DNA from: Candidatus Fervidifonticultor sextus
GTDB lineage: Bacteria; Sysuimicrobiota; Sysuimicrobiia; Sysuimicrobiales; Humicultoraceae
NCBI GenBank assembly: GCA_031459875.1
Contig: JAVKHQ010000007.1
Coordinates: forward strand, 12,530 to 76,529
DNA length: 64,000 nt
Reading direction: 5' to 3'
How positions within the stretch are numbered: position 1 is the first letter of the stretch; every line of letters begins with the position of its first letter. Positions 4,019 through 27,324 of this stretch are shown one piece after another. The notes under the pieces are model-generated. The model was not told where the DNA came from. It saw only the letters and a program-made list of their open reading frames with translations, and searched no databases. A program made the position numbers and the translations under genes.

Positions 4019-5734
4019 ATGCCAGAGACCCGGTTCCTCGCAGACCTCGGGCTGCTGTTCCTGGCGGCCCTCATCGGAGGCGGACTCGCCCACCTCCTGC
4101 GGCAGCCGCTGATCGTCGGCTACATCATCGGCGGCATCCTCGTCGGGCCGTTCACCCCCGGACCGACCATCTCCGACCCCCGGTCGTTCCAGGTGTTCGC
4201 CGAGATCGGCGTCGTGCTGCTCCTGTTCTCGGTGGGCGTGGAGTTCTCCATCGAAGAACTGCTCCGCGCCGGCAAGGTGGCCCTCTACGGCGGCCCGGTG
4301 GCCATTGCACTGATTGTCCTCCTGACGGCCCTGGGAGGGAGGCTGCTGGGATGGCCCCTGGCGCAGAGCCTGGTGGTCGGCGGGGCGGTCAGCACCGCCA
4401 GCACCATGGTGATCTTCAAGTTCCTGTTGGAGCGCGGCGAACTCAACGCCCCACACGGCCGCCTCATGGTCGGGATCACCCTCATGGAGGACCTGGCGGT
4501 CGTGGCCATGAGCATCCTGCTGCCGGCTTTGGGTGCCGCCGGGGAGCAGCGTCTCCCGCTGTTCACCAGAGGCCTGCTGGAGGCGGCCCTGGTCCTGGTG
4601 CCGCTCCTCTGGCTGGCCCGGCGGGTCGTGCCGCGGGTGCTGCACCGCGTGGCGCTGACGCGCAACATGGAACTGTTCCTCCTGGTCGCGTTGGCCATCG
4701 CCGTCGGCACGGCGGCGTTGACCCTTCGCCTGGGGCTGACGCTGGCCCTGGGAGCCTTCCTCGCCGGCCTCCTCATCAGCGAATCCGAGTTCTCCCACGA
4801 AGCGCTGGCCAGGGTCTTACCGATGCGTGATGTCTTCGTCGCGGTCTTCTTCGTCTCGTTGGGGATGCTGGTTCGCCCGCAGTCCCTGGTGGCCGAATGG
4901 CCGACGGTGGTGGTGCTCATTCTGATTGTGACGCTCGGTAAGTTCGGCGTGTGGAGCAGCCTCGTCCGCCTGGCAGGCCACCGGCCGGCGACCGCCATCA
5001 TGACCGGCGTGGGCCTGATGCAGGTCGGGGAGATCGCCTACGTCCTGGCGGGCGTCGGTCGCCTCCACGGACTGATCACTCCCTCGGTCCACCAGGCCAT
5101 CATCGCCACCTCGCTGGTGACCATCCTGCTCAACGCCCAGGTCTTTCGGCGCACGCCGCGCTGGCTGCAGGCCCTCCTGGCGCGGCGTGCGCCCGCGGGA
5201 GTGGCGGAGGCCGCCGGCGAGCCGCAGGAAGGGCATGCGATCATCTGCGGCTTCGGCCGGGTCGGCCGCCAGGTGGCCGACGCACTCGACACCTTCGGAA
5301 CCCGGTACACCGTGATCGATCTGGATCCTGAAGCCACGGCCGCCGCGAGGATGCGGGGGGCGGTCTCCGTTTTCGGCGACGCCGGCAACGACCTGATCCT
5401 CGACCGTGCAGGAGCCTGGCGGGCGCGCCTGGCGGTCGTCGCCATCCCCGACTTTGACGCGGCCCATCGCTGCGTGCGGGCCCTGCGCCGGATGAGCGAG
5501 GACCTGCCCATCCTCGTCCGCGTGCACCACGTCGGGCACCGGGCCCGGATGCTGGACGCCGGGGCCACAGAGGTCATCCAGCCCGAGGTCGAAGCCGGCC
5601 TCACCATCGTGCGGCACAGCCTGGACCGCCTGGGCGTGGACCACGCCGAGGGCCGGCGCTACCTGGAGGGAGTGCGGCGCCACTGGTCCGCGGCCTCCGA
5701 CGAGGAGGCCAGCCCGGTCAGCGAGGTAAGATGA
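4019..5734 (+). CDS. Cation:proton antiporter, CPA2 family (KefB/YbaL-like) with TrkA-N domain
   Basis: Many TM segments, AEIGVVLLLFSVGVE, GAFLAG, then IICGFGRVG Rossmann motif. Confidence 0.9.
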   Translation: MPETRFLADLGLLFLAALIGGGLAHLLRQPLIVGYIIGGILVGPFTPGPTISDPRSFQVFAEIGVVLLLFSVGVEFSIEELLRAGKVALYGGPVAIALIVLLTALGGRLLGWPLAQSLVVGGAVSTASTMVIFKFLLERGELNAPHGRLMVGITLMEDLAVVAMSILLPALGAAGEQRLPLFTRGLLEAALVLVPLLWLARRVVPRVLHRVALTRNMELFLLVALAIAVGTAALTLRLGLTLALGAFLAGLLISESEFSHEALARVLPMRDVFVAVFFVSLGMLVRPQSLVAEWPTVVVLILIVTLGKFGVWSSLVRLAGHRPATAIMTGVGLMQVGEIAYVLAGVGRLHGLITPSVHQAIIATSLVTILLNAQVFRRTPRWLQALLARRAPAGVAEAAGEPQEGHAIICGFGRVGRQVADALDTFGTRYTVIDLDPEATAAARMRGAVSVFGDAGNDLILDRAGAWRARLAVVAIPDFDAAHRCVRALRRMSEDLPILVRVHHVGHRARMLDAGATEVIQPEVEAGLTIVRHSLDRLGVDHAEGRRYLEGVRRHWSAASDEEASPVSEVR

Positions 5735-5741
5735 GGGCAGG

Positions 5742-9131
<3,390 letters not shown>

Positions 9132-22805: not shown

Positions 22806-23552
22806 ATGCGACGATTACTGTTCGCGCTGGCGGTGGTAGTCCTCCTGGTCGTGACGGCCGGTGTTCCGGCATCGGCGGCCTCGTGGTTCCAGTTGCGGGT
22901 CAACCCGTCTTCGGGCGACTGGCGTGGCGGGTCGCCCGGATTTAGTGACCTCCCGTACACGTTCACCGCCAACATGTTCGGGCTCACCGGCTTCTGGCAG
23001 CCGTCGGGGTTCCGGCTGGGGCTGAGGGGGAACCTCGACACGGGATCGCTGTCGTCGTTCTCCGCGGGCATCGGCTACACCGGCGGCAACTGGCGCTGGT
23101 GGGACCTCAGCCTCGGCCTGCCGCTTCCCCTCGGTCCCGCCACGGCGTTGATCTTTGCCGGCATGGGAGACACCAGGTGGCAGGCGGACCTCCCGGGCGG
23201 CTTCTCGCGCCAGACCACGAGCGGCATGGTGTTTGGCGCCGACGTCTGGGTGCCGCTGAGGGAAGGCCGGTGGTACGTCTACGGCCACGCGCTGTTCGGC
23301 CCGAGCCACAACTACAGGTACGCGAACCTCGGCTTTGACCCCAGGTTCACGGGGAAGGCGGACGTGGCCAACTACTCCGCAGCTCTCGGCTACAACTTCC
23401 CCGGCACCATGAACAGCATCGAGCTCGGATGGCGGTCCGGCGGGTTTAGGGTGAAGGACGCCATACCGGTGATTCCTGGGGACGTAAACATCAACGGCAT
23501 GGAGACCCGCTGGTCAGGCGTCTATCTCGGCGTGGTGGTGCGCCGGCCCTAG
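22806..23552 (+). CDS. Exported hypothetical protein, probable outer-membrane beta-barrel
   Basis: Sec-type signal (MRRLLF...PASA), aromatic/Gly-rich alternating strands, C-terminal GVYLGVVVR; RBS GGAGG. Confidence 0.6.
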   Translation: MRRLLFALAVVVLLVVTAGVPASAASWFQLRVNPSSGDWRGGSPGFSDLPYTFTANMFGLTGFWQPSGFRLGLRGNLDTGSLSSFSAGIGYTGGNWRWWDLSLGLPLPLGPATALIFAGMGDTRWQADLPGGFSRQTTSGMVFGADVWVPLREGRWYVYGHALFGPSHNYRYANLGFDPRFTGKADVANYSAALGYNFPGTMNSIELGWRSGGFRVKDAIPVIPGDVNINGMETRWSGVYLGVVVRRP

Positions 23553-23655: not shown

Positions 23656-23730
23656 GGGGACGTAGCTCAGCGGGAGAGCACCTGCTTTGCACGCAGGGGG
23701 TCGGGGGTTCGAATCCCCTCGTCTCCACCA
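23656..23730 (+). tRNA. tRNA-Ala(TGC)
   Basis: Acceptor GGGGACG/CGTCTCC with G3:U70, D arm GCTC/GAGC, anticodon arm CCTGC-TTTGCAC-GCAGG, GGTTCGAATC T-loop, encoded CCA; extended -10 TGcTATAAT at 23623-23631. Confidence 0.97.
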
Positions 23731-23757
23731 ATCCAGTCAGGACGCGGGTTTCCGCCG

Positions 23758-23935
23758 TTGAGCCCCTCGCCAAACCCGCCGAAAAAGCAGGGGCTCACCC
23801 CCTCGCTGATGCCGTCGAGGCGTTCCTGCTGACCAAGCGCGTGGCCGGCTGTACCGAGGCCGCGCTCCAGGTCTACCCCTGGTGGCTGCGCCGGCTGACC
23901 GCCGAGGTGCCCGAGGTGACGGCGCGGCCTCGCGG
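23758..23935 (+). pseudogene. Tyrosine integrase N-terminal (core-binding/SAM-like) remnant, frameshifted and truncated
   Basis: TTG start LSPSPNPPKKQGLTP, frameshift at the C5 run 23798-23802, then LADAVEAFLLTKRVAGCTEAALQVYPWWLRRL; no catalytic domain follows. Confidence 0.7.
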
Positions 23936-23964
23936 CGGGTCAAGACGGTGGGTGGTCGTGTCGA

Positions 23965-24714
23965 TCAGTTGCAGCGCGGCAGCTCAATGGAGATAGGAGC
24001 GTTGAAGTCCTGGTAGTCCATACCCATCATGGGCTTGCCCTGGTCGAACATCTCCGACCGTCGCGGCATCCCGTCTGCTGTGACGTAGAAGCGCTGCTCG
24101 CCGGCGGGCTGTCCCGGCATCCGCCACACGATCCGGTAGACCCGCACGGGAACACCGCCCAGCGTCGCGTCGGAGAGCCGCCCCACCTCGACCTCGGACT
24201 CCCCGCCCCCTTGCCCACCGCTGCTCCCGCCGCCCTCGTCCAGGGTCTGGCACCGCCACCCCATGAGGCGCTGCGCGGCCGCCTGCATCATGGCGTTCAC
24301 GGCCGCCTGCATGAGGAACCCGGCGAGGAAACCGACCGGGTCCATGAAGGCGCCGATCAGCCCGCCGAGGCCGAGCGAGGGCTGCGGCACCGCCGGCTGC
24401 GCGGACCTGCTCACGAACCGGGAGGCCACCTGTCGCCCGACGATGATCGATTCGGCCGTCCCTTCCGGGAACTCCACGACCGCCCGCCGCCGGTCGGGAT
24501 TCACCACCTCCGTAAGGATCGTCATCTGTCGTTGGGCGCTCAGCTCGGGAGCTAGCGCCATGATCATCCTGTAGGTGCGGAGGGCCTGCAGGCGGTCGAA
24601 GGCCGCCTTGACCTCCTCCCAGGCCCCCGCGTCCCCGCTCACCCGCTGGGCCAGCGCAGGCGTGACCGCCAGGACCACCAGCAGCACCGCGGCGATCAGG
24701 CGCACTGCCCTCAC
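23965..24714 (-). CDS. Exported hypothetical protein (island cargo)
   Basis: Signal peptide VRLIAAVLLVVLAVTPALAQ; C-terminus DFNAPISIELP resembles LolA/LppX-like folds (weak). Confidence 0.65.
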   Translation of the reverse strand: MRAVRLIAAVLLVVLAVTPALAQRVSGDAGAWEEVKAAFDRLQALRTYRMIMALAPELSAQRQMTILTEVVNPDRRRAVVEFPEGTAESIIVGRQVASRFVSRSAQPAVPQPSLGLGGLIGAFMDPVGFLAGFLMQAAVNAMMQAAAQRLMGWRCQTLDEGGGSSGGQGGGESEVEVGRLSDATLGGVPVRVYRIVWRMPGQPAGEQRFYVTADGMPRRSEMFDQGKPMMGMDYQDFNAPISIELPRCN

Positions 24715-24778
24715 CCCCTGCCATGGTCTGCGGGCGGGATCCCGCCGAGTCCGTCGTCGGTTCCCGCCGCGTGCGGCG

Positions 24779-25024
24779 CTACCCCTTCGGGTAGGAGTAG
24801 TTGACCATCCACTGCACCCCGAACCGGTCCGTGAAGCTGCCGCAGTAGTCGCCCCACACCTGGTCGGCGATCGGCATCTCGATCTTCCCACCCGCCGAAA
24901 GCGCGTTGAAGATCCGGTCCGCCTCCTCCTTCGTCTCCGGATGGACGGAGATGTAGACGTTGTTGCCCTGCACGAGCGTCTGCCCGAGCGACTCAAGGGT
25001 GTCGGAGGCCATCAGAACACCATT
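24779..25024 (-). pseudogene. C-terminal half of a VOC/PhnB-family protein
   Basis: VLMASD...NVYISVHPETKEEADRIFNALSAGGKIEMP...WGDYCGSFTDRFGVQWMVN; in-frame TAG at 25025-25027 immediately upstream, N-terminal half absent. Confidence 0.8.
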
Positions 25025-25158
25025 CTAGCAGGAGCGGCGCGAACGCGCCGGACATGACAGCTCGCCCGAGGTCGCCGGGGCCTTCGCGCACGCAGACCCA
25101 TACGTGACGAACGGGCCGGTCACGCGCTGGCGGTGCGGAAGTGAACCACCGTGATCGG

Positions 25159-25179
25159 CGAATCCCTCGTCTCCACCAA
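25159..25179 (+). repeat. Duplicated tRNA-Ala 3' end (attR-like)
   Basis: 21-nt copy of 23710-23731 with one C missing. Confidence 0.9.
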
Positions 25180-25230: not shown

Positions 25231-27324
25231 TCATCGGAGATCGAACAGGTAGTACCCGCCGTCGGCGTATTCGAGCCGCGGGCCGTCTTCCCCGAACGCC
25301 TCCCGGGCCAGCCAGCCGCCGGGACGGCGCCACCGGACGATGAGCGGATACTGCGGGTACACGACGAGGTGTGTGAACCCGGCACGAGTCAGAACGGTGC
25401 GGACCTCCTGTCCGCTCTCGGCCGCCAGGACCGCATCCCGCAGGTCGCGTCCGAAGAGGCGGCCGTACCACGACAGCGGCACGAAGAAGCGATCGTAGTA
25501 GTACGCCTTGTCCTCGCCGGCACCGTAGATGCGGGCCGAGGCGGGGAGCGCGCGCCGGGCGTAGTCGGCCACGTTGAATCCCGCCACGCGTTGCTCCAGA
25601 TATGCGGTCCTCGACAGCCGCCGCGCCGCCACCTGCCAGGGGAAGTATGACAGCGCCGGCGCGATCCAGGCCCCGGCCCCCAGCGCCAGCCCCACGGTCA
25701 GGACGAGGGCCGAGGACAGCGCGCCCGGGCCGCGCCGCGGCTCTGCGAACAGTCCCGCCGCCCCGACGAGGGCGGCCAGCGGGAGGACGGGCAGCAGGAA
25801 CCTCAGATACTGCGCGGTCACGAACCAGATCAGACCCGACGCGCCGAGCACGCCGGCCAGCCACCGCGGGACCTGACGGCGGGCCACGGCCAGCAGGGTG
25901 GCCGGCAGGAGGATCAGGTAGACGATGCCGAGCGTCCCGTCCTCCACGAAGCGGCCGGGGAAACGCGTGACCCGCCACGGGATCAGGAGCAGGTCCACAG
26001 GCGACCTCCCCGTCCCCTGCACCGGCAGCGCCGGCAGCCCGCCCCCTGGCCCCGCCAGCGGGCTTTTGAAGACCTCGTTGAACAGAGGAAATACCGGGTT
26101 CCCCGTCAGCAGCCAGGCCCTGAGGTACCAGTATGCTCCGGTGGCGGCCAGCCCGACGGCCAGGGCCAGCAGGTCCGGCCACAGCGAACGGTCCGCGCGC
26201 GTGCGCCGTGCCATCAGGAGGAACGCCGCGACGCCGGGGAGTACGACTGCAGAGGCGGTGACCTTCACCCCCAGGGCCGCGCCGGCCAGTAGGCCGACCA
26301 GCAGGGCGCGTCCAGGTCCCGGTCGACGGGCGTAGCGCTCCAGGGCGGCCGCCAGCCCGACGGCGAAGAGCACGACCCAGAGATCGGTGTAGGCCGCCCC
26401 ACCGACCCACCACACCAGCGGGGTGCCGGCCGCAACCGCCGCGCCCGCCAGGCCGACGCGAGCGTTCCAGAGTCTCGCGCCCAGGTCATAGGTCAGGAAG
26501 CAGGCCGTCGCTCCGGCGAGGAAATGGAGGAGTTTGGGCACGGCCTCCCCCGGGACGAGGGTCATGCCCATGGCGAAGAGCAGGTCGCCGTTCAGCTGGA
26601 AGTAACTCGCGGCGTTCTGGCGCATCTCCACGATCGCGCCAACTCTGGCGAACTCGCGAGCAATCGGCAGGTGCGCGGCGAGCGCGTCGTAGCGCACCTC
26701 GGGGGCTGTGGCGCCCACCAGCCCGATCAACAGGAGCAGCACGAACCCCCACCACCAGGCCAGGCCCGGACGCTCCTCGGCAGGCAAGGATGCAGCGTCC
26801 CGTCCACGCCGCAGGGAAAGGACGGCGCCGCCCACGCCGGCGAGGACACATGCGACCACGAAGGGCGCCCTCAAAACCCCCAGCGTGCCCGATGCGAGGC
26901 CGAGCACGATCAAAACCGCCCACCCTGCGGTGGCCAGGAGCGGCGCGGTCTGCCAGGAGCCGGTCTCGTCGGCGAGGTCCAGCCACGGTGCGAGCATTCG
27001 TCCGTAGCCGTAGGCCGCGGCCAGCATGCAGCAGGCGACGGCGAATGCCCAGGCGACCTGGGCGCCGGCGGCGATGGACGTCGCGGCGAGGCCCGCGACC
27101 GCCACCAGCAGCCAGACGGCCCGCGCCGGCCGGCGGCGCTCGAGCCACCGTAGGGCGGCAGCAGGAACGGCCACCGCCGCGGCGCCGGCGAGTCCGACCA
27201 GGGCGAGGAACGCGTAGTCCCTCCCCGGGCGCAGGAGAGGGAGTGCAGCCACGTAGAGGGCAGGGGGCAGGGAGACCCACGGAGCCAGGATCGTGGTGAG
27301 TCGGGAGAGCCGGCTCACCGTCAT
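25231..27324 (-). CDS. Multi-pass membrane glycosyltransferase-like protein (GT-C/ArnT-PMT-like)
   Basis: About 698 aa, many TM helices, PEVRYDALAAHLPIA loop, GNPVFP, YLRFLLP; start chosen at MTVSRL. Confidence 0.7.
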   Translation of the reverse strand: MTVSRLSRLTTILAPWVSLPPALYVAALPLLRPGRDYAFLALVGLAGAAAVAVPAAALRWLERRRPARAVWLLVAVAGLAATSIAAGAQVAWAFAVACCMLAAAYGYGRMLAPWLDLADETGSWQTAPLLATAGWAVLIVLGLASGTLGVLRAPFVVACVLAGVGGAVLSLRRGRDAASLPAEERPGLAWWWGFVLLLLIGLVGATAPEVRYDALAAHLPIAREFARVGAIVEMRQNAASYFQLNGDLLFAMGMTLVPGEAVPKLLHFLAGATACFLTYDLGARLWNARVGLAGAAVAAGTPLVWWVGGAAYTDLWVVLFAVGLAAALERYARRPGPGRALLVGLLAGAALGVKVTASAVVLPGVAAFLLMARRTRADRSLWPDLLALAVGLAATGAYWYLRAWLLTGNPVFPLFNEVFKSPLAGPGGGLPALPVQGTGRSPVDLLLIPWRVTRFPGRFVEDGTLGIVYLILLPATLLAVARRQVPRWLAGVLGASGLIWFVTAQYLRFLLPVLPLAALVGAAGLFAEPRRGPGALSSALVLTVGLALGAGAWIAPALSYFPWQVAARRLSRTAYLEQRVAGFNVADYARRALPASARIYGAGEDKAYYYDRFFVPLSWYGRLFGRDLRDAVLAAESGQEVRTVLTRAGFTHLVVYPQYPLIVRWRRPGGWLAREAFGEDGPRLEYADGGYYLFDLR

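What the first reader, a model, noticed from the sequence alone, without database searches (positions are those of the whole stretch)
23710..25179. Collapsed ~1.45 kb integrative element in tRNA-Ala with both att sites still present
The tRNA 3' end (CGAATCCCCTCGTCTCCACCAA) recurs 1.45 kb downstream with one C deleted. Between the copies lie a frameshifted integrase stub, one intact exported-protein gene and half of a PhnB/VOC gene. This looks like an island reduced by internal deletions while one cargo gene was kept, which suggests selection for that gene. It could still be excised in trans by a related integrase.
Basis: partly seen in the sequence, partly recalled or inferred. Interest (0 to 1): 0.7.

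Follow-up and report, generated by a model that had tools for sequence, protein, structure and literature searches.

The report
Decayed genomic island at tRNA-Ala
This 1.45 kb stretch is the worn-down, immobile remnant of a mobile genomic island that once inserted into a tRNA-Ala gene of an Armatimonadota bacterium, which is a common kind of genomic fossil and not a new system.

Summary
The 3' end of the single-copy tRNA-Ala(TGC) recurs 1,448 bp downstream, as 16 exact nucleotides or 21 with one C missing. The 15-mer occurs nowhere else in the 3.05 Mb genome.

- **Integrase stub:** 23733-23925 is the first 64 codons of a tyrosine integrase. It is 93% identical to an intact 306-aa integrase beside the same tRNA in a sister genome. 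It is truncated, not frameshifted.
- **phnB half:** a 232-bp deletion produced it. Two relatives keep the whole gene.
- **Exported gene:** intact, with a LolA/LppX-like fold. It came by horizontal transfer from another genus, where it sits beside proS.

Three claims fail or weaken.
- **attR:** only 21 nt remain, against 44-49 nt in relatives.
- **Excision in trans:** this genome has no intact integrase of the family. The remnant is shared with a sister species, and the stub drifts neutrally.
- **Selection for the cargo gene:** not shown. dN/dS is 0.6-0.8, not significantly below 1, and no promoter-like site was found.

This is a CIME-like island remnant, so interest is low. One side observation stands out: integrase stubs of similar length recur beside tRNA genes across this order.

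The parts
23656..23730 (+). tRNA-Ala(TGC), single copy in the genome; target gene and attL side of the element
   Evidence: ARAGORN. Rfam RF00005, 70 bits. It is the only tRNA-Ala(TGC) among 53 tRNAs. It is 100% identical in G002.
23711..23732 (+). attL copy of the direct repeat (CGAATCCCCTCGTCTCCACCAA), the 3' end of the tRNA
23733..23925 (+). Stub of a tyrosine integrase gene: a conserved 5' leader plus codons 1-64 of about 306. The ATG seen in G003 reads ACG here. The catalytic domain is absent.
   Evidence: tblastn gives 93% identity to G003 integrase residues 2-61. The DNA alignment follows the G003 and G028 integrase genes up to 23925 and then diverges. The G003 protein has PF00589 and PF13495. 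Pfam finds nothing in the stub alone. Identity to the G002 stub is 87.8% with indels, which fits neutral decay.
23789..23803 (-). Terminator-like hairpin plus T-run inside the stub, downstream of the exported gene on the - strand. Weak evidence.
   Evidence: 1 site found against 0.5 expected. The block GAAAAAGC...GCTCACCCC is conserved in all integrase 5' regions.
23923..23964 (-). 3' flank of the exported gene. The deletion junction to the integrase stub lies at 23923-23925, with CGC microhomology.
   Evidence: Homology to the G006 and L030 core locus ends at 23923. Homology to JAVKII ends at 23927.
23965..24717 (-). Intact gene for an exported LolA/LppX/LprG-like protein of 246-249 aa. The likely start is the GTG at 24708. 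It has a Sec-type signal peptide (...LAVTPALAQ/R) and two invariant Cys. It was acquired horizontally.
   Evidence: ORF list. No Pfam hit. Only 14 relatives among 5.8 billion proteins, two of them named 'outer membrane lipoprotein-sorting protein'. AlphaFold model with pLDDT 71. Foldseek top hits are LppX 2byo (E 2e-5), LprG, RseB and LolA. It is 86-89% nt identical to G006/L030 copies that lie beside proS, while flanking core genes are 68-76% identical.
24718..24778 (-). Short intergenic stretch left after a roughly 320-bp deletion, relative to the JAVKII copy, between phnB and the exported gene
24779..25021 (-). C-terminal half of a PhnB/VOC (3-dmu-9_3-mt / glyoxalase) gene. The N-terminal half, the start codon and the RBS are deleted.
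   Evidence: Pfam PF06983 positions 70-115 of 116. G002 and JAVKII carry the full 143-aa gene. The window lacks 232 bp at 25021|25022, with AT microhomology.
25022..25157 (.). Island-internal DNA next to attR (formerly upstream of phnB), conserved in G002 and JAVKII
25158..25179 (+). attR: a displaced 3' fragment of tRNA-Ala. 21 nt remain, with one C missing. The inner part is lost.
   Evidence: The identical fragment is in G002. The fragments at the same tRNA are about 49 nt in G028 and about 44 nt in G004.
25231..27000 (-). Right chromosomal flank: a GT-C/PMT_2-type membrane glycosyltransferase gene, convergent on attR. It is not part of the element.
   Evidence: Pfam PF13231, E 4e-9. It is syntenic in G001, G002, G003 and G005.

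Best explanation
A tyrosine-integrase island once integrated into the 3' part of the single-copy tRNA-Ala(TGC) gene. That rebuilt the tRNA (attL) and displaced a 3' tRNA fragment (attR).

In the common ancestor of this genome and sister species G002, illegitimate deletions with 2-3-nt microhomologies removed most of it. They took everything after integrase codon 64, the rest of the island interior, and the inner half of attR. This genome later lost 232 bp of phnB as well. It also lacks about 320 bp between phnB and the exported gene that a third genome (JAVKII) retains.

What remains is a mosaic: tRNA, integrase stub, a LolA-like exported gene, half of phnB, and a 21-nt attR. The LolA-like gene was imported from another genus, where it is a core gene beside proS. 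JAVKII still carries stitched proS fragments next to its copy.

The remnant is now ordinary, vertically inherited chromosomal DNA. It cannot excise by itself, and very probably cannot be excised in this cell at all.

Shown: the repeat, the integrase identity of the stub, the deletion junctions, sharing with G002, foreign origin of the cargo gene, and absence of an intact integrase.

Inferred: the order of the deletions, the original attR length, the crossover position, and the lack of mobility.
For: - **Repeat:** exact 16-mer, or 21 nt with one indel. None of 100 shuffles matched it, and it is unique in the genome.
- **Stub:** matches G003 integrase residues 2-61 at 93%. The G003 gene is intact, 306 aa, with PF00589 at E 2.9e-32. 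The DNA alignment shows the window leaving the integrase gene at 23925.
- **Hotspot:** the same tRNA is occupied in relatives. G003 has an intact integrase with HsdM and a SLFN/AlbA_2 gene. G028 has an 8.2 kb element whose integrase carries 2 stops, plus a 49-nt attR. G004 has a 2.0 kb remnant with a 44-nt attR. G001 has no integrase.
- **Shared with G002:** the same stub, the same junction and the same attR with the same missing C, but an intact phnB.
- **Foreign cargo:** in G006 and in the P0004 contigs the gene lies in the order rhodanese, DUF4395, thioredoxin, paralog, this gene, proS. It is 86-89% nt identical there, against 68-76% for neighbouring core genes. The window genome's own proS locus holds an SBP gene instead. 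The JAVKII copy is followed by proS fragments. The long-form gene is absent from G001, G003, G004 and G005.
- **No helper integrase:** the genome, 96% complete, has only two stubs plus Xer-like genes at 34-38% identity.
- **Neutral stub:** 87.8% identity with indels against G002, compared with 100% for the tRNA.
Against:
- The genome is a 67-contig draft, so an integrase on missing DNA cannot be excluded.
- G002 does carry an intact family member, 80% identical, at a tRNA-Arg(CCT). Trans action in that species is therefore not excluded.
- The 21-nt attR could be the native short fragment of a different, older element with a T-loop or acceptor-junction crossover, and not a truncated 49-nt one.
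- In JAVKII the phnB and LolA-like module lies with no tRNA or att site within 6 kb. It is therefore not proven that the module entered as cargo of the integrase-bearing island and not by later recombination into the remnant.
Confidence: 0.87

Rival explanations
1. It is a still-functional cis-mobilizable element (CIME): a mini-island without its own integrase that a related integrase can excise and re-integrate through attL and attR.
For: Both repeat copies and about 190 bp of the integrase-proximal arm are retained. An intact family integrase exists in sister G002. N-terminal stubs of similar length recur beside tRNAs in at least 5 independent loci. That could mean the arm is kept for a reason.
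Against: attR is 21 nt against 44-49 nt in relatives, and lacks the anticodon-loop region where their identity blocks begin. This genome has no intact family integrase. The element sits at the same place, with the same scars, in two species. The stub accumulates substitutions and indels at the neutral rate. No second copy of the element exists elsewhere in this genome.
Confidence: 0.06
2. The stub and the attR come from two different elements of a former tandem array. An older element with a short, T-loop or junction-type 21-nt fragment carried phnB. The integrase-bearing element integrated later. A deletion then fused the two.
For: attR is much shorter than the fragments left by this integrase family at the same tRNA. 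Tandem accretion at tRNA sites is common (PMC5704250; Islander lists 125 tandems, PMC4383910). G028 holds two different integrases between its att copies.
Against: No second tRNA fragment lies between the copies. Nothing in the interior identifies a second element. This rival is compatible with the main explanation and does not exclude it.
Confidence: 0.2
3. The repeat is a chance match or a local duplication of the tRNA end. The genes between are native chromosomal genes, and no island was ever there.
For: No integrase domain is detectable by Pfam in the window itself. The interior is only 1.45 kb.
Against: None of 100 shuffles reproduced the repeat, and it is unique in 3 Mb. The stub is 93% identical to a real integrase beside the same tRNA. 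The interior genes are absent from this position in G001, G003 and G004. The LolA-like gene is of foreign origin.
Confidence: 0.01

Closest known systems
CIME (cis-mobilizable element): a decayed ICE or IME that kept attL and attR, as defined in streptococci (review PMC5704250)
   Same: It lies in the 3' end of a tRNA gene. It is flanked by a direct repeat of the tRNA end. The integration gene has been lost by deletion, and a little cargo remains.
   Different: attR is truncated to 21 nt. No helper integrase is present in the cell. No sign of mobility was found, and the remnant is fixed in two species. The phylum (Armatimonadota) is different, and no conjugation context is known.
tRNA-integrated genomic islands as mapped by Islander (tDNA plus displaced tDNA fragment; PMC4383910)
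   Same: The signature is the same: an intact tDNA, a 3' fragment downstream in the same orientation, and the integrase gene next to the tDNA.
   Different: It would fail Islander's filters, because it has no integrase ORF and is shorter than 2 kb. It is a late decay stage that such tools do not report.
Intact sister element in G003 (306-aa tyrosine integrase, then HsdM, then a SLFN/AlbA_2 gene) and the 8.2 kb element in G028, both at tRNA-Ala(TGC)
   Same: The target tRNA is the same, and the integrase 5' region is 91-94% identical in DNA.
   Different: Those elements keep a whole or nearly whole integrase and carry different cargo. The window keeps 64 codons and unrelated cargo.
LolA / LppX / LprG / RseB superfamily of periplasmic lipid- or lipoprotein-binding proteins (for the cargo gene)
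   Same: The predicted fold matches: Foldseek E 2e-5 to 1e-3, TM up to 0.63 on the target. The protein has a signal peptide.
   Different: Sequence identity is about 10%. There is no Pfam match. A roughly 48-residue hydrophobic or helical insertion (residues ~107-150) is absent from the short paralogs. The ligand is unknown.

Membership tests
tRNA-integrated genomic island (Islander signature) | Intact tDNA plus a displaced 3' tDNA fragment downstream in the same orientation | tested here: met
tRNA-integrated genomic island (Islander signature) | An integrase ORF between the tDNA and the fragment | tested here: not met
   Only codons 1-64 remain, with no catalytic domain.
tRNA-integrated genomic island (Islander signature) | Length of 2-200 kb | tested here: not met
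   1,448 bp between the repeat copies.
CIME (cis-mobilizable element) | Integration and transfer genes lost | tested here: met
CIME (cis-mobilizable element) | Recombination-competent attL and attR retained | tested here: inconclusive
   attL is intact. attR is 21 nt with a 1-nt deletion, against 44-49 nt in relatives. Competence cannot be judged from sequence alone.
CIME (cis-mobilizable element) | Excision or mobilisation by a helper element's integrase | not testable with these tools
No helper integrase is in this genome.
Tyrosine recombinase / phage integrase (PF00589) | Catalytic domain with the R..H-x-x-R..Y residues | tested here: not met
   It is absent from the window. It is present in the G003 orthologue (HALRH...LLGH...RY).
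Tyrosine recombinase / phage integrase (PF00589) | N-terminal SAM-like core-binding domain | tested here: inconclusive
   The stub covers about half of the PF13495 match region of G003 (residues 26-95). It scores nothing on its own.
PhnB / VOC (PF06983, PF00903) | Complete paired beta-alpha-beta-beta-beta modules, about 140 aa | tested here: not met
   Only profile positions 70-115 of 116 are present. The full 143-aa gene is in G002 and JAVKII.
LolA superfamily | Unclosed beta-barrel with a helical lid, and export to the periplasm | tested here: met
   Predicted model (pLDDT 71) with Foldseek hits to LppX, LprG, RseB and LolA. The signal peptide was read from the sequence.
LolA superfamily | Sequence-profile membership (Pfam LolA, LppX_LprAFG or MucB_RseB) | tested here: not met
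   No Pfam family at E <= 0.1.

The most novel reading that the evidence does not exclude
The roughly 190-230 bp integrase 5' stub beside the tRNA may be retained for a reason and not by chance. Across this Armatimonadota order, at least five independent loci (at tRNA-Ala, tRNA-Arg and tRNA-Gly genes) keep a stub whose homology to the intact gene stops within a 35-bp window, at codons 63-75. A second group stops at codons 96-110. That could mark a functional tRNA-proximal arm. It might be needed for mobilisation in trans (true CIMEs), or for tRNA 3' processing or protection from antisense transcription.
Probability: 0.1. Interest if true: 0.5.

Novelty: new member of a known kind. Interest (0 to 1): 0.22.

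Why it matters
This is a clean, fully mapped example of late-stage island decay in a poorly studied phylum, Armatimonadota. Every junction is located and sister genomes show earlier stages. It shows that tRNA-Ala(TGC) is an integration hotspot for one integrase family in this order. It also shows that such remnants can carry core genes moved between genera: a LolA-like gene that still has proS debris beside it in one relative. In practice, standard island finders would miss it, because it has no integrase ORF and is under 2 kb. It does not reveal a new mechanism.

Tried and rejected
- **Pfam on the stub:** no hit. The integrase identity had to come from relatives.
- **attR in G003:** I searched the 20 kb downstream of its integrase and found nothing. 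The size of that island is therefore undefined, and I dropped the '18 kb island' idea. Much of that stretch is ordinary genes: ABC transporter, cupredoxin, Crp and GT2.
- **Searching the genome behind the JAVKII contig:** the record is not held.
- **att core in the JAVKII locus:** none, even with up to 2 mismatches, and no tRNA.
- **Hidden RNA:** Rfam found only the tRNA.
- **Promoter scan:** nothing.
- **Pseudo-att site idea:** I considered that a pseudo-att site in the integrase gene (GGTTC..CTCG, resembling the T-arm) caused integrase-mediated deletions. I rejected it because none of the stubs is followed by a tRNA 3' fragment.
- **G000/G002 remnant as a direct derivative of the JAVKII arrangement:** unlikely. 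The window keeps 4 nt of donor-like intergenic sequence that JAVKII lost. This evidence is weak.

Full report

Yes. The window has 70% G+C and contains one tRNA, tRNA-Ala(TGC), at 23656-23730. The last 16 nt plus one, CCCTCGTCTCCACCAA, occur again exactly at 25164-25179, 1,448 bp downstream. Allowing one deleted C, the match is CGAATCC(C)CTCGTCTCCACCAA, at 23711-23732 and 25158-25179. None of 100 dinucleotide shuffles of the window gave two copies of the 15-mer. It also occurs only at these two places in the whole 3.05 Mb, 67-contig, 96%-complete assembly. This tRNA-Ala(TGC) is the only one in the assembly.

**2. What lies between the copies**

(a) *Integrase stub.* Frame +3 from 23733 reads ...PLADAVEAFLLTKRVAGCTEAALQVYPWWLRRLTAEVPEVTA.... 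Pfam sees nothing in it. In sister genome G003 (same genus), however, the same tRNA is followed by an intact 306-aa ORF with PF00589 (E 2.9e-32) and PF13495. The window stub matches its residues 2-61 at 93%.

The DNA alignment shows the window and G002 following the G003 and G028 integrase genes up to 23925 and then switching to unrelated DNA. The stub is therefore the first 64 of about 306 codons, truncated and not frameshifted. The ATG of G003 reads ACG here.

(b) *Exported gene.* 23965-24717 on the minus strand is an intact gene of 246-249 codons with a Sec-type signal peptide. It has no Pfam family and only 14 relatives among 5.8 billion proteins. A model built from those relatives (pLDDT 71) matches LppX, LprG, RseB and LolA.

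(c) *phnB half.* 24779-25012 on the minus strand is the C-terminal half of a PhnB/VOC protein.

**3. Sister genomes**

*G002* is a different species of the same genus, 94-97% identical in the flanks. It has the same tRNA, the same stub with the same junction, and the same attR with the same missing C. Its phnB, however, is complete. The window lacks 232 bp at 25021|25022, which removes the N-terminal half, the start codon and the RBS. The remnant therefore predates the split of the two species and is inherited vertically. The phnB deletion came later.

The same tRNA is a hotspot in other relatives:
- **G003:** the intact integrase, followed by an HsdM methylase and a SLFN/AlbA_2 gene. No attR was found within 20 kb.
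- **G028** (another family of the order): an 8.2 kb element. Its tRNA-proximal integrase is 85% identical to G003's and is broken by two stops. It holds a second integrase, and its attR is 49 nt.
- **G004:** a 2.0 kb remnant with a different stub, an SDH-type protease gene, and a 44-nt attR.
- **G001:** no integrase sequence after the tRNA.

In G028 and G004 the displaced fragment begins in the anticodon loop or stem. That is the 'anticodon-centred' class of attachment sites (PMC4383910). The window's 21-nt fragment has lost that part.

**4. Origin of the cargo**

In genome G006 (another genus) and in metagenome contigs carrying P0004, the LolA-like gene sits in a stable core context. The order is rhodanese, DUF4395, thioredoxin, a 201-aa paralog, this gene, then proS. 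The window copy is 86-89% identical in DNA to those copies, while the neighbouring core genes are only 68-76% identical. Homology starts 14 nt before the start codon and ends 42 nt after the stop, exactly at the stub junction.

The window genome's own proS locus (contig C12) has a solute-binding-protein gene where those genomes have the two LolA-like genes. The long-form gene is absent from G001, G003, G004 and G005.

A third genome, JAVKII010000003.1 (an Armatimonadota MAG), carries a longer version of the module. It has a full phnB, about 320 bp more spacer, the LolA-like gene at 97% nt identity, and then three stitched fragments of a G006-type proS. The gene was therefore imported from a genome in which it neighbours proS.

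Homology between the window and JAVKII stops at the inner edge of attR on one side and at the stub junction on the other. That is what one expects if those two points are deletion junctions in the window's lineage. JAVKII shows no tRNA or att core within 6 kb. I therefore cannot prove that the module entered as island cargo.

**5. Is it still mobile, and is the gene selected?**

*Mobility.* This genome has no intact integrase of the family. It has only this stub, a second stub beside tRNA-Arg(GCG) on contig C9, and Xer-like genes at 34-38% identity. G002 does have an intact relative (80% identity) at another tRNA.

Between G000 and G002 the stub is 87.8% identical, with indels. The tRNA is 100% identical and the flanking genes have dS of 0.08-0.18. 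The stub is therefore drifting neutrally.

*Selection on the LolA-like gene.* Within the island-bearing clade, dN/dS is 0.59 (against JAVKII) and 0.79 (against G002, 3' half). Neither is significantly below 1 (p = 0.20 and 0.33). Against G006 it is 0.46 (p = 0.002), and the flanking OMP-like gene gives 0.16. The deletions have stripped the regions upstream of both phnB and the LolA-like gene, and no promoter-like site is found. Expression would need read-through from the convergent glycosyltransferase gene. Selection for the kept gene is therefore possible but not shown.

**6. Comparison with what is known**

This matches the tRNA-island signature (PMC4383910). It also matches the concept of a CIME: an element that lost its integration genes but kept its att sites (PMC5704250). 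It would fail Islander's integrase and length filters. I file it as a decayed, probably immobile island remnant, which is a new member of a known kind.

**7. Side observation**

A search with the G003 integrase across 41 genomes found 8 intact family members and many N-terminal stubs beside tRNA-Ala, tRNA-Arg and tRNA-Gly genes. In a DNA alignment, five to six independent stubs lose homology within 35 bp of one another, at codons 63-75. Three more end near codons 100-110.

Under a uniform breakpoint model this is nominally unlikely, at about 1e-3. A detection floor near 50 codons, together with progressive whittling of pseudogenes that cannot extend into an essential tRNA, could produce the same picture. 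The neutral drift of the window's stub also argues against constraint. I leave this open.

**Limits**

All genomes are draft MAGs.

Noticed in passing
L002:1432-1734 (own genome, contig C9:1809-2108, outside the window): A second integrase N-terminal stub of the same family, 60% aa identical to the window's. It lies directly after tRNA-Arg(GCG) and ends after about 78 codons, next to a creatininase-family gene. An identical full tRNA-Arg(GCG) sits at the start of contig C33.
   Followed up: partly
A7 alignment; loci L033-L040 and L002: Stubs of this integrase family beside tRNA-Ala, tRNA-Arg and tRNA-Gly genes, in several genera, lose homology to the intact gene within a 35-bp window (codons 63-75). 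A second group ends near codons 96-110. This could be clustering, or a detection floor combined with a deletion ratchet.
   Followed up: partly
window 23789-23803 (- strand): A terminator-like hairpin (AGGGG GTGAG CCCCT followed by a T-run) lies inside the integrase 5' region. It is conserved in all family members. On the minus strand it would stop transcription running towards the tRNA.
   Followed up: no
window 22806-23552 (+): A 248-aa exported protein of unknown family (no Pfam hit) lies just upstream of the tRNA. In G004, paralogs of it lie on both sides of the tRNA-Ala element (L028 1141-1851 and about 4300-5018).
   Followed up: no
own genome C4:2214 and C1:85378 (outside the window): Further displaced tRNA 3' fragments. 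The 16-nt tail of tRNA-Ala(CGC) recurs on C4, and the tail of tRNA-Pro(TGG) recurs on C1. These may be other island scars.
   Followed up: no
L029:6785-7330 (JAVKII010000003.1): The 177-aa 'ORF' after the LolA-like gene is made of three stitched proS fragments (codons ~80-97, 164-213 and 248-285 of a G006-type proS). The first is joined through an 11-nt microhomology, CGCCGCGAGGC. An IS-type transposase gene lies 3.5 kb away, 97% identical to a copy on contig C23 of the window's genome.
   Followed up: partly
L023:2031-2948 and 7614-8645 (G028): The tRNA-proximal integrase of the 8.2 kb element carries one TGA and one TAG. A second, 46%-identical intact integrase lies inside the same element, together with a DNA methylase-like gene and an IS110-like transposase.
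   Followed up: no
own genome C12:56498-60562 (outside the window): At the proS locus, the two LolA-like genes present in G006-type genomes are replaced by a 518-aa family-5 solute-binding-protein gene.
   Followed up: partly
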